From: the human T2T-CHM13v2.0 reference genome, Homo sapiens
Length of the DNA stretch: 64,000 nt
Direction: 5' to 3' (one strand)
NCBI RefSeq assembly: GCF_009914755.1
Contig: NC_060935.1
Shown: positions 60,282-62,265 of the stretch, in pieces
Layout of the letters: the number at the start of each line of letters is the position of its first letter
Position numbering within the stretch: position 1 is the stretch's first letter
Program-made: the position numbers and the translations under genes
Notes under the pieces: model-generated
Told to the model about the DNA's origin: nothing
The model's input: the letters and a program-made list of their open reading frames with translations, nothing else
The model's database searches: none

Positions 60282-60913
60282 AAGACAAAAGCATCATTAG
60301 AGTTGAAGACAGTCAACACACAATGGTAAAGGTCCAATTCACTAGAAAATTTTAACAGTTCTAAGCATGTAATAACCTAATTAGATTCAAAATAACTCAG
60401 TATGTGGTAAAACAAAAACTGACAAAGTTACAGAGAGAAACTAACAACTCCATCATTACATTGAGAAGATACTAAACTTCCTCTCTCAATTGTTGCTAGG
60501 TCAAACAAATAAAAAAAGATCAATTATATATAGGTTAAAGATCAGAATTAGCAAGCTTTACATAACAGACTTATAGAGTTCTGTGTCCTAAATTTAAATG
60601 ATAAACATTCTTCTAAGGTACACCTGGACCACTTGATAACATACTTGGCTATAAAGTAAGACAATTAATTTTTTAAAATAGGTATTGTATAGATATATTC
60701 TCTGGAAAAAAACAAAATTAAATTGGAAGTTATTAATAAAAAGATAAAGAAAGATGAATTATAGCTTTTGTTTATGAATAGGAAAACTGAATATCACAAA
60801 AATATCAGTTCAGCTCAGTACGTCTTTAGAATCAATGCAACCTAATCCATCAGGTTTCACAAACTTATTCTAAAATGTACAGGAAAGAGCAAAGGGCCAA
60901 GAATAACCAAGAC

Positions 60914-61212
60914 TTTTTTTTTTTTTTTTTTTTTGAGACGGAGTCTTGCTCTGTCGCCCAGCCTGGAGTGCAGTGGCGCGATCTCGGCTCACTGCAAGCT
61001 CTGCCTCCCAGGTTCACGCCATTCCCCTGCCTCAGTCTCCCAAGTAGCTGGGACTACAGGCGCCCGCCACCACTCCCGGCTAATTTTTTGTATTTTTAGT
61101 GGAGACCGGGTTTCACCGTGTTAGCCAGGATGGTCTGATTTCCTGACCTCGTGATCCACCCTCCTCAGCCTCCCAGAGTGCTGGGATTACAGGCATGAGC
61201 CACCGCCTGGCC
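60914..61212 (-). mobile_element. AluY inserted in an old L1M ORF2 relic (putative source element)
   Basis: TSD TAACCAAGAC at 60904-60913 and 61213-61222. Confidence 0.95.
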
Positions 61213-61355
61213 TAACCAAGACACTTTTGAAGAAAAAGATGGTAGACAAGAGGGAGAGGCTGCCCTGGATATATTCTAAAACTAAGGTAATTAAGACAAC
61301 ATAATATTGCACCTGCTCTACCAGGTTTCAAAACTAATTCTAAAACTAGAGATGT

Positions 61356-61617
61356 GGGCGGATCACGAGGTCAGGAGATGGAGACCCTCCTGGCTAACAC
61401 AGTGAAACCCCATCTCTACTAAAAATACAAAAAAAAAAAAAAAACTTAGCCAGGCGTGGTGGTGGGCGCCTGTAGTCCCAGGTACTCGGGAGGCTGAGGC
61501 AGGAGAATGGCGCGAATCTGAGAGGCGGAGCTTGCAGTGAGCTGAGATCGAGCCACTGCACTCCAGCCTGGGTGACAGAGCAAGACTCTGTCTCAAAAAA
61601 AAAAAAAAATTAAAATT
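61356..61617 (+). mobile_element. 5'-truncated AluY
   Basis: TSD AAACTAGAGATGT at 61343-61355 and 61618-61630. Confidence 0.93.
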
Positions 61618-61718
61618 AAACTAGAGATGTAGCCATTAATATGGCACAGCAATGGTTCAGAGTGGACAAAATAGAAACAAGAGCCAGAAACACTACCAGA
61701 CACTATGAAACTGTGATA

Positions 61719-62265
61719 CACTGTCATGCATTGCCTAATGATGGTGATACATTCTGAGATATTCATTATTAGGTAATTTTGTTGTTGTGTGAACATCATA
61801 GAGTACTTTCGCAGACCTAGATGGTATAGCCTACCACACACCTAGACTTTATGGCATAGCCTATTGCTCCCACGCTACAAACCTGTACAGCATGTTACAG
61901 GAAAGAGCAAAGGGCCAAGAATAACCAAGACTTTTTTTTTTTTTTGAGACAGAGTCTTGCTCTGTCGTCCAGGCTGGAGTGCAGTGGCTCGATCTCGGCT
62001 CACTGCAAGCTCCGCCTCCTGGGTTCACGCCATTCTCCTGCCTCGGCCTCCCGAGTAGCTGGGACTAGAGGTGCCCGCCACCACGCCCGGCTAATTTTTT
62101 TGTATTTTTAGTAGAGACGGGGTTTTACCATGTTAGCCAGGATGGCCTCAATCTCCTGGCCTCATGATCCGCCCACCTCGGCCTCCCAAAGTGCTGGGAT
62201 TACAGGCATGAGCCACCACGCCCAGTCCATCATTGACCTAAACATCACTATGTGGTGAACAATTG
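61719..62265. mobile_element. Tigger3-type DNA transposon, interrupted and partly deleted by an AluY (61932-62225, minus) plus 36 bp of foreign flank
   Basis: GTCATGCATTGCCTAATGATGG...CTACAAACCTGTACAGCATGTTAC on the left and GTCCATCATTGACCTAAACATCACTATGTGG on the right; TA flanks. Confidence 0.85.

What the first reader, a model, noticed from the sequence alone, without database searches (positions are those of the whole stretch)
60872..62265. AluY copied with its unique 3' flank up to the Pol III terminator into a TSD-less deletion 1 kb away: candidate RNA-templated break repair with an identifiable source Alu
Seen: the 36-mer TACAGGAAAGAGCAAAGGGCCAAGAATAACCAAGAC abuts the polyT of two minus-strand AluYs (60878-60913 and 61896-61931, identical). 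At the first site it is continuous with the host L1M relic, and that Alu has a normal 10-bp TSD, so this is the original. At the second site flank+Alu has no TSD, replaces a missing piece of the Tigger3 (roughly 100-120 bp by my recollection of the consensus), and shows short junction microhomology (TAC left, CAG right). In Alu orientation the source reads A-tail-GTCTTGG...CCTGTA-CA-TTTT, so the copied unit stops 2 nt before the first T4 (60872-60875). Established: Alu Pol III transcripts run through unique flank to the first T4+, ordinary TPRT primes in the A-tail and loses that flank, and endonuclease-independent Alu insertions lack TSDs and carry target deletions. Inference: the full transcript of the neighbouring Alu patched a double-strand break in cis. 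DNA-templated SDSA is the alternative. The two Alu bodies differ at many, largely CpG, sites, so the event is old.
Basis: partly seen in the sequence, partly recalled or inferred. Interest (0 to 1): 0.8.

Follow-up and report, generated by a model that had tools for sequence, protein, structure and literature searches.

The report
Neighbour Alu's flank copied beside second Alu
A 36-base stretch that lies next to one Alu repeat has been copied to sit next to a second Alu one kilobase away during the repair of an old DNA break, but the sequence alone cannot show whether the copy was made from RNA or from DNA.

Summary
The 36-mer occurs exactly twice in the window and in the whole assembly, each time against the T-run of a minus-strand AluY.

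- **Source.** Site 1 is ancestral. The 36-mer is continuous L1M-like sequence there, and Alu1 has a 10-bp target-site duplication (TSD).
- **Copy.** Site 2 has no TSD. It replaces about 122-124 nt of a Tigger-like element and has 3-nt microhomology at both junctions.
- **Boundaries.** The copy ends 2 nt before the first T4 after Alu1. Neither flank beyond it is duplicated.

The two Alu bodies share 0 of 6 non-CpG derived changes and only 2 CpG transitions. Each has at least 39 closer relatives elsewhere in the genome. So nothing shows that the Alu body was copied along with the flank.

My best reading (about 0.45): Alu2 inserted independently. A later break on its tail side was repaired by pairing with neighbouring Alu1, copying across its flank, and end-joining with a deletion. 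The full-transcript RNA model (about 0.2) is not excluded. Primate orthologues would decide between them, and I could not reach any. Interest is moderate.

The parts
60872..60875 (-). First run of four T on the Alu1 sense strand downstream of its tail. This is the predicted first Pol III stop.
   Evidence: the first run of T>=4 is at +39..42 after the tail, and the next is a T5 at +112.
60878..60913 (+). Source copy of the 36-mer, part of an old L1M-like ORF2 relic. Its last 10 nt are the left TSD of Alu1.
   Evidence: Searches show it is unique. One search shows 12 of 12 paralogs carry its homolog in the same context.
60914..61212 (-). Alu1 (AluY-like): 21-nt tail at 60914-60934 and body at 60935-61212. 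It is flanked by the TSD TAACCAAGAC at 60904-60913 and 61213-22.
   Evidence: It departs from the consensus of 43 other copies at 20 columns.
61720..61898 (+). Left part of the Tigger-like short element. Its last 3 nt, TAC (61896-61898), are shared with the 36-mer as microhomology.
   Evidence: the listed matches of the 40 scored, out of 2787 candidates, are 81-86% identical; paralogs continue ...GCATGTTAC|TGTACT.
61896..61931 (+). Second copy of the 36-mer, identical to the first.
61932..62225 (-). Alu2 (AluY-like): 14-nt tail at 61932-61945 and body at 61946-62225. It has no TSD. Its 5' end overlaps the Tigger-like sequence by CAG (62223-62225) and lacks the first 2 nt of the Alu.
62226..62267 (+). 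Right end of the Tigger-like element. Relative to the short paralogs, 122-124 nt are missing between 61898 and here.
   Evidence: L007 122 nt, L030 124 nt, L006 161 nt.
60859..60877 (+). L1M-like stretch left of the source 36-mer. In the same register it resembles the Tigger-like stretch 61877-61895, sharing ACAAAC and scattered further matches. It may have served as an annealing patch, and it lies beyond the T4.
   Evidence: repeat D4; 12 of 30 bases match and the longest run is 6, which 0.5% of shuffles reach. Both stretches are ancestral to their repeat families.

Best explanation
Alu1 inserted by ordinary target-primed reverse transcription into an L1M-like relic. Alu2 inserted on its own, in the same orientation, into a Tigger-like element 1 kb away.

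Later a double-strand break arose on the tail side of Alu2. The broken end carrying Alu2 and its A-tail paired with the neighbouring Alu1 locus, using Alu and tail homology. It was extended across the Alu1 tail into the unique flank for at least 36 nt. It was then released and joined to the other broken end inside the Tigger-like element at a short homology, TAC.

That repair removed Alu2's left TSD and about 120 nt of the element. It left the 36-mer plus T-run as a local templated patch. The template was most likely the DNA of the Alu1 locus.

Shown here: the direction of copying, that it followed Alu1's insertion, the deletion, the junction homologies and the lack of kinship between the two Alu bodies. 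Inferred: that Alu2 was there first, and that the template was DNA.
For: - **Alu bodies unrelated.** They share 0 of 6 non-CpG derived changes and 2 CpG transitions. Copies picked without regard to Alu1 share 0-4 with it.
- **Similarity is ordinary.** Four unrelated AluY copies are 88.9-90.0% identical to Alu2, about the same as Alu1. At least 39 copies elsewhere are 91-93% identical to Alu2, and at least 39 are 92-94% identical to Alu1.
- **No gradient along the body.** The first difference lies 6 nt from the tail, and differences are spread evenly after that. The flank and tail are identical but no part of the body is.
- **Flank may be younger.** The flank is 36/36 identical against 12/229 non-CpG differences in the bodies. 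That fits a patch younger than the Alus (P 0.14-0.17 if the same age).
- **5' boundary explained.** If Alu2 is an independent insertion, its right boundary at the Alu 5' end needs no coincidence.
- **Source is nearby.** It lies 1,018 bp away on the same strand. By established knowledge, recalled, that is typical of homology-primed and microhomology-primed DNA synthesis at breaks.
- **Possible annealing patch.** An in-register resemblance (12 of 30, with a 6-nt run, p about 0.005) lies left of the junction, beyond the T4. It would be used only if the template reached past the T4.
Against: - **End point near the terminator.** The copy ends 2 nt before the first T4 of Alu1's downstream flank. On this model that is a coincidence; I put it at roughly 0.05-0.1 for a short synthesis tract, which is my estimate and not a computed value.
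- **Poor L1 cleavage site.** No good L1 endonuclease site follows plausible TSD lengths to the right of Alu2. I read CATT/GA and ACCT/AA, set against the TTTT/A preference quoted. A classical origin of Alu2 is therefore not confirmed, and its TSD cannot be recovered.
- **Two rare steps.** This model needs an insertion and then a complex repair. The rival needs one event.
- **Weak statistics.** The 36/36 identity is not significantly different from the body divergence.
- **Post hoc observation.** The in-register patch was noticed after the fact.
Confidence: 0.45

Rival explanations
1. The whole Pol III primary transcript of Alu1 (body, A-tail and 3' trailer up to the first T4) was reverse-transcribed at an endonuclease-independent break 1 kb away. 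Priming came from the Tigger-like 3' end ...TAC pairing near the RNA 3' end. The cDNA end was joined at the Alu 5' end through CAG.
For: - Both ends of the duplicated unit fall within a few nt of the predicted transcript ends. The 5' end lies at Alu nt 3-5. The 3' end lies 2 nt before the T4, or reaches its first T if the 1-nt bulge ATGT(T)AC is allowed.
- There is no TSD, there is a 122-124 nt deletion, and the left junction has no T-rich cleavage site.
- These match the features of non-classical Alu insertions, over half of which carry extra non-Alu sequence (passage in PMC5402677).
- One event explains everything.
Against: - No shared derived change marks Alu2 as offspring of Alu1: 0 of 6 non-CpG. 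The copy would have to date from just after Alu1's insertion.
- In that case, 36/36 flank identity has P 0.14-0.17.
- A retrotransposition intermediate has no known reason to land 1 kb from its source.
- Non-classical insertions are typically 3' truncated without a tail, whereas this one has a tail plus trailer.
- The in-register patch beyond the T4 would be a coincidence, unless Pol III read through. Read-through would remove the terminator argument.
Confidence: 0.2
2. Alu2 was already present. Only the trailer of the Alu1 transcript served as an RNA template. The Tigger-like 3' end primed near the RNA 3' end, and the new strand ran through the 36 nt into the T-run. That T-run then annealed to Alu2's own A-tail at the other broken end.
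For: It explains the terminator-side end point, the unrelated Alu bodies, the possibly younger flank, and the deletion without a TSD. RNA-derived patches at human breaks are described for templated sequence insertions (PMC5110952: abstract and first sections read).
Against: Nothing in the sequence separates this from the DNA-templated version except the end point near the T4. By established knowledge, recalled, RNA-templated repair is much rarer than DNA-templated repair.
Confidence: 0.1
3. The whole 331-348 nt unit (36-mer, T-run and Alu1) was copied from DNA in one step, by replication template switching or strand invasion at microhomology. An alternative route is a 1,018-bp tandem duplication followed by a deletion.
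For: Microhomology of 3 nt at both junctions. The source is 1,018 bp away in direct orientation. Site 2 starts exactly one repeat period after site 1 (repeat D4).
Against: The copy would have to stop within 5 nt of the Alu 5' end by chance. The duplication-plus-deletion route needs two events and a deletion that ends at the Alu boundary.
Confidence: 0.1

Closest known systems
Non-classical (endonuclease-independent) Alu insertions. I saw Srikanta et al. 2009 only through its summary in PMC5402677; the paper itself is not held.
   Same: No TSD, a deletion at the target, no L1 cleavage motif at the left junction, extra non-Alu sequence inserted beside the Alu, and microhomology at the junctions.
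   Different: Those insertions are typically 3' truncated and lack a tail. Here a full tail is followed by 36 nt that can be traced to a named neighbour 1 kb away. The Alu body shows no kinship to that neighbour.
Class 2 templated sequence insertions and polymorphisms (PMC5110952: abstract and first sections read)
   Same: A patch copied from elsewhere fills a double-strand break, with end-joining marks at the junctions. An RNA origin is proposed for such patches.
   Different: [quoted passage not shown] This one comes from 1 kb away and ends in a homopolymer run shared with the neighbouring repeat.
One-ended homologous invasion coupled to end joining, and Alu-Alu gene conversion (established knowledge, recalled; no paper read for it here)
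   Same: Homology on one side only (Alu plus tail), a short synthesis tract into the donor's unique flank, release, and a non-homologous join with a deletion on the other side.
   Different: No conversion tract is visible inside the Alu body. I know of no described case of an Alu's post-tail flank being carried over to a neighbouring Alu. My three literature searches on this found none, but they covered only the open-access papers and preprints that the tool holds.
3' transduction by L1 and SVA (named in the review PMC4859970; passages read covered only Alu termination and endonuclease-independent insertion)
   Same: Downstream flank of a source element appears beside a second copy.
   Different: Transduced flank lies after the element and is followed by a new poly(A) tail and a TSD. 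Here there is no second tail and no TSD.

Membership tests
Non-classical (endonuclease-independent) Alu insertion | No target-site duplication around the inserted unit | tested here: met
   No direct repeat flanks 61896-62225. Only 7 of 30 bases match to the right of the two Alu 5' ends.
Non-classical (endonuclease-independent) Alu insertion | Deletion of target sequence | tested here: met
   122, 124 and 161 nt are missing relative to the 3 complete paralogs. The other 26 of 29 paralogs are unresolved.
Non-classical (endonuclease-independent) Alu insertion | No L1 endonuclease cleavage motif at the priming junction | tested here: met
   The left junction reads GTTAC|TGTA in the paralogs, against the TTTT/A preference quoted. 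I judged this by reading the sequence.
Non-classical (endonuclease-independent) Alu insertion | Typically 3' truncated, without a poly-A tail | tested here: not met
   A 14-nt tail plus a 36-nt post-tail flank are present. The feature is as stated in the PMC5402677 passage.
Non-classical (endonuclease-independent) Alu insertion | Empty, undeleted site in an outgroup species | not testable with these tools
   No primate genome other than the window's own assembly is held.
Alu2 as offspring of Alu1 (source and copy) | Shared derived substitutions beyond CpG decay | tested here: not met
   0 of 6 non-CpG and 2 of 11 CpG-site changes of Alu1 are shared with Alu2. This is also compatible with copying straight after Alu1's insertion.
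Alu2 as offspring of Alu1 (source and copy) | Each is the other's closest relative in the genome | tested here: not met
   Neither appears among the other's 40 scored matches. The others are 91-94% identical. Only 40 of 2348 and 40 of 5388 candidates were scored.
Copy of a Pol III primary transcript | Copied unit lies within Alu nt 1 to the first T4 downstream | tested here: met
   The unit starts at Alu nt 3-5 and ends 2 nt before the T4 at 60872-60875. This is necessary but not sufficient.
Classical target-primed insertion (Alu1) | Tail plus a TSD of 7-20 bp | tested here: met
   A 21-nt tail and a 10-bp TSD at 60904-13 and 61213-22. The right copy is followed by ACTTTT/GA.
Classical target-primed insertion (Alu2, before the repair) | TSD and a T-rich cleavage site | tested here: inconclusive
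   The left side is deleted. To the right, only weak candidate sites (CATT/GA, ACCT/AA) follow plausible TSD lengths.
DNA-templated break repair with a local templated insertion | Template close by in cis, junction microhomology, and an accompanying deletion | tested here: met
   The template is 1,018 bp away. The junction overlaps are TAC and CAG. The deletion is 122-124 nt. Whether the template was DNA or RNA cannot be tested here.

The most novel reading that the evidence does not exclude
The complete Pol III primary transcript of an identifiable Alu (body, tail and unique trailer up to the terminator) was reverse-transcribed into a chromosomal break 1 kb from its own gene in the primate germline. 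This would be a source-resolved Alu insertion that carries its post-tail flank, and a natural example of transcript-templated break repair near the site of transcription.
Probability: 0.2. Interest if true: 0.75.

Novelty: new member of a known kind. Interest (0 to 1): 0.4.

Why it matters
Alu source elements can almost never be identified, because ordinary insertion discards the unique trailer of the transcript. A copy that kept the trailer would name its source. It would also show reverse transcription primed at the true RNA 3' end at a break.

If the DNA-templated reading is right, the locus is still a clean natural example of two things. First, neighbouring Alus can serve as one-sided homology for error-prone repair. 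Second, that repair can erase a TSD and so mimic a non-classical insertion. This is a caution for any census of TSD-less Alus.

One alignment of primate orthologues would separate the models.

Tried and rejected
- **Chance or a longer duplication: rejected.** The 36-mer is unique to these two places. The resemblance to its left (repeat D4) is ancestral to each repeat family. To the right, only 7 of 30 bases match.
- **Site 2 as the original: rejected.** The 36-mer is continuous L1M-like sequence only at site 1. It also includes Alu1's left TSD next to the T-run.
- **Another L1M copy as the donor: rejected.** Three paralogs match 30 nt of the flank at up to 3 mismatches. None matches the 36-mer at up to 3 mismatches.
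- **A partial conversion tract inside the Alu: not seen.** The first difference lies 6 nt from the tail.
- **Subfamily marker: set aside.** Alu1 carries G at one non-CpG column where 8 of the 12 copies picked by likeness to Alu1 also carry G, while Alu2 and 29 of 29 copies picked by likeness to Alu2 carry A. This could mean different subfamilies. However, Alu1 lacks the second marker that 9 of those 12 carry, and picking by likeness favours such matches, so I did not use it.
- **Small survey: no analogue.** Among 96 Alu tails in 287,845 nt of held sequence, no other pair shares a unique post-tail flank. The other 3 recurring flanks are themselves repeats. The sample is too small to say anything about frequency.
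- **Steps that did not work.** The Srikanta 2009 paper is not held. A search for papers joining templated insertion, Alu and RNA-templated repair found none.

Full report
**Observation**

None of 100 shuffles gave two matches. At up to 3 mismatches these are the only two occurrences in the 3.1-Gb assembly that holds the window.

Each copy is followed at once by a pure T-run and a minus-strand Alu. The runs are 21 T at 60914-60934 and 14 T at 61932-61945. No tool here assigns repeat families.

**Which site is the original**

I fetched 12 paralogs of the sequence left of Alu1. All 12 carry the homolog of the 36-mer together with the same left flank...ACAAACTTATTCTAAAATGTA. In 7 of the 12, the sequence after ...CCAAGAC continues like window 61223 onward. 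So the relic runs straight through the Alu1 insertion site.

Alu1 has a 10-bp duplication, TAACCAAGAC, at 60904-60913 and 61213-61222. The second 36-mer ends with that duplication directly against a T-run. It must therefore have been copied from site 1 after Alu1 had inserted.

**Site 2**

The host is a short Tigger-like element. The listed matches of the 40 scored, out of 2787 candidates, are 81-86% identical to its left part. Both ends could be located in 3 of the 29 paralog loci. In these the element continues ...GCATGTTAC|TGTACT..., so TAC (61896-61898) is shared between target and source.

The stretch missing from the window copy is 122, 124 and 161 nt in the three paralogs.

On the right, Alu2 lacks its first 2 nt and overlaps the element by CAG (62223-62225). 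There is no direct repeat around the unit. Beyond the Alu 5' ends the two sites match at 7 of 30 positions.

With a 1-nt bulge, the left homology grows to ATGT(T)AC against ATGTAC in the source.

**Terminator**

On the Alu1 sense strand, the first run of four or more T after the tail lies at +39..42, which is 60872-60875. The next is a T5 at +112. The copied stretch ends 2 nt before the first one.

**Was the Alu body copied with the flank?**

I collected 43 other AluY-like copies:
- 29 picked by likeness to Alu2;
- 12 picked by likeness to Alu1;
- 2 from the window.

I then polarised every difference against their majority consensus.

| | Columns departing from consensus | CpG-site changes | Non-CpG | Indel columns |
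|---|---|---|---|---|
| Alu1 | 20 | 11 | 6 | 3 |
| Alu2 | 19 | 12 | 6 | 1 |

The two share two derived states, and both are CpG transitions. No non-CpG change is shared. Copies picked without regard to Alu1 share 0-4 derived states with it, so two shared states is ordinary.

Four unrelated AluY copies from sequence fetched for other reasons are 88.9-90.0% identical to Alu2. That is the same as Alu1, which differs from Alu2 at 34 of about 289 columns. In the whole genome, 39 other copies are 91-93% identical to Alu2 and 39 are 92-94% identical to Alu1. Neither Alu appears in the other's list. Only 40 candidates were scored in each search, so these counts are lower bounds.

Differences are spread evenly along the body, and the first lies 6 nt from the tail.

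Nothing therefore marks Alu2 as a copy of Alu1. That is compatible with a whole-unit copy only if it was made right after Alu1 inserted. In that case the 36-mer is as old as the bodies. The bodies differ at 12 of 229 non-CpG sites, and 36/36 identity then has a probability of 0.14-0.17. This is a mild strain, not a rejection.

**An extra observation**

The 30 nt to the left of the two 36-mers match at 12 positions in the same register, including the run ACAAAC (repeat D4). A run of 6 is reached by 0.5% of shuffles and by 0.5% of random window 30-mers.

Both stretches are ancestral to their repeat families, so this is not part of the duplication. It could have stabilised annealing of the broken Tigger-like end to the template. 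But it lies beyond the T4, so a transcript that stopped at the T4 would not contain it. I noticed this after the fact and give it little weight.

**Weighing the models**

- It explains both end points with one event.
- It fits the published picture of non-classical Alu insertions: no TSD, a deletion, and often extra non-Alu sequence. Those insertions are usually 3' truncated, however (passage in PMC5402677).
- Its weak points are the missing kinship of the bodies, the flank identity, and the fact that the supposed source lies 1,018 bp away. A retrotransposition intermediate has no known reason to land there.

*Whole-unit DNA copy.*
- It shares the first two weak points.
- It must also stop within 5 nt of the Alu 5' end by chance.

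*Independent Alu2 with a flank-only patch (my best reading).*
- The 5' boundary, the unrelated bodies and the possibly younger flank all follow directly.
- The nearness of the donor is what homology-primed repair predicts (established knowledge, recalled).
- Alu2's broken end would pair with Alu1, be extended across the tail into the flank, and be joined at TAC with loss of the left TSD and about 120 nt.
- Only the nearness of the end point to the T4 is left to chance.
- The same geometry works with the trailer of the Alu1 transcript as the template. RNA-derived patches at human breaks are in print (PMC5110952: abstract and first sections). The sequence cannot separate the two templates.

My estimates:

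| Model | Confidence |
|---|---|
| Independent Alu2 with DNA-templated flank patch | 0.45 |
| RNA trailer-only patch | 0.1 |
| Whole-unit DNA copy | 0.1 |
| Something else | remainder |

These rest partly on rough priors of my own, not on computed likelihoods.

**What is known**

Endonuclease-independent Alu and L1 insertions, templated sequence insertions at breaks, and Alu-mediated mutagenic repair are all described (listings; passages).

I found no description of an Alu's post-tail flank reappearing beside a neighbouring Alu. Three searches covered only the library of open-access papers and preprints that the tool holds. The key paper on non-classical Alu insertions is not held. It may describe the origin of the extra sequences it reports, so I make no claim of absence from print beyond those searches.

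**Limits**

- No primate genome other than the window's own assembly can be reached with these tools, so the decisive dating test was not run.
- The small survey of 96 Alu tails only shows that the pair is not a common artefact of the local sequence.

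Noticed in passing
window 61356-61617 (+), repeats at 61343-61355 and 61618-61630: A third, 5'-truncated Alu on the plus strand lies between the two sites. It has an interrupted A-tail and a 13-bp target-site duplication, AAACTAGAGATGT. It looks like an ordinary insertion into the same L1M-like relic.
   Followed up: partly
window 60904-60934 versus 61213-61230: The right copy of the Alu1 duplication is followed by ACTTTT/GA, a good L1 cleavage site. The left copy goes from ...GAC straight into the T-run without the AC. The true duplication may be 16 bp with 2 nt lost on the left. The second 36-mer shares the form without AC.
   Followed up: no
window 60840-60862 and 61311-61333: The L1M-like relic holds an internal 23-nt near-repeat with 78% identity (repeat D9) on either side of Alu1. 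It is probably an old feature of the element.
   Followed up: no
alignment column 204 (Alu1 body, window about 61015-61020): Alu1 carries a non-CpG G also found in 8 of the 12 genomic copies most like it. Nine of those 12 carry a second marker that Alu1 lacks. Alu2 and 29 of 29 copies most like Alu2 carry A at this column. This may be a subfamily difference between the two Alus, or an effect of picking copies by likeness.
   Followed up: partly
window 62464-62478 and 62583-62597; 62656-62669 and 62680-62693: Two short exact direct repeats of 15 nt and 14 nt lie just downstream of the locus (repeats D10 and D12). They are unexplained and possibly due to chance.
   Followed up: no
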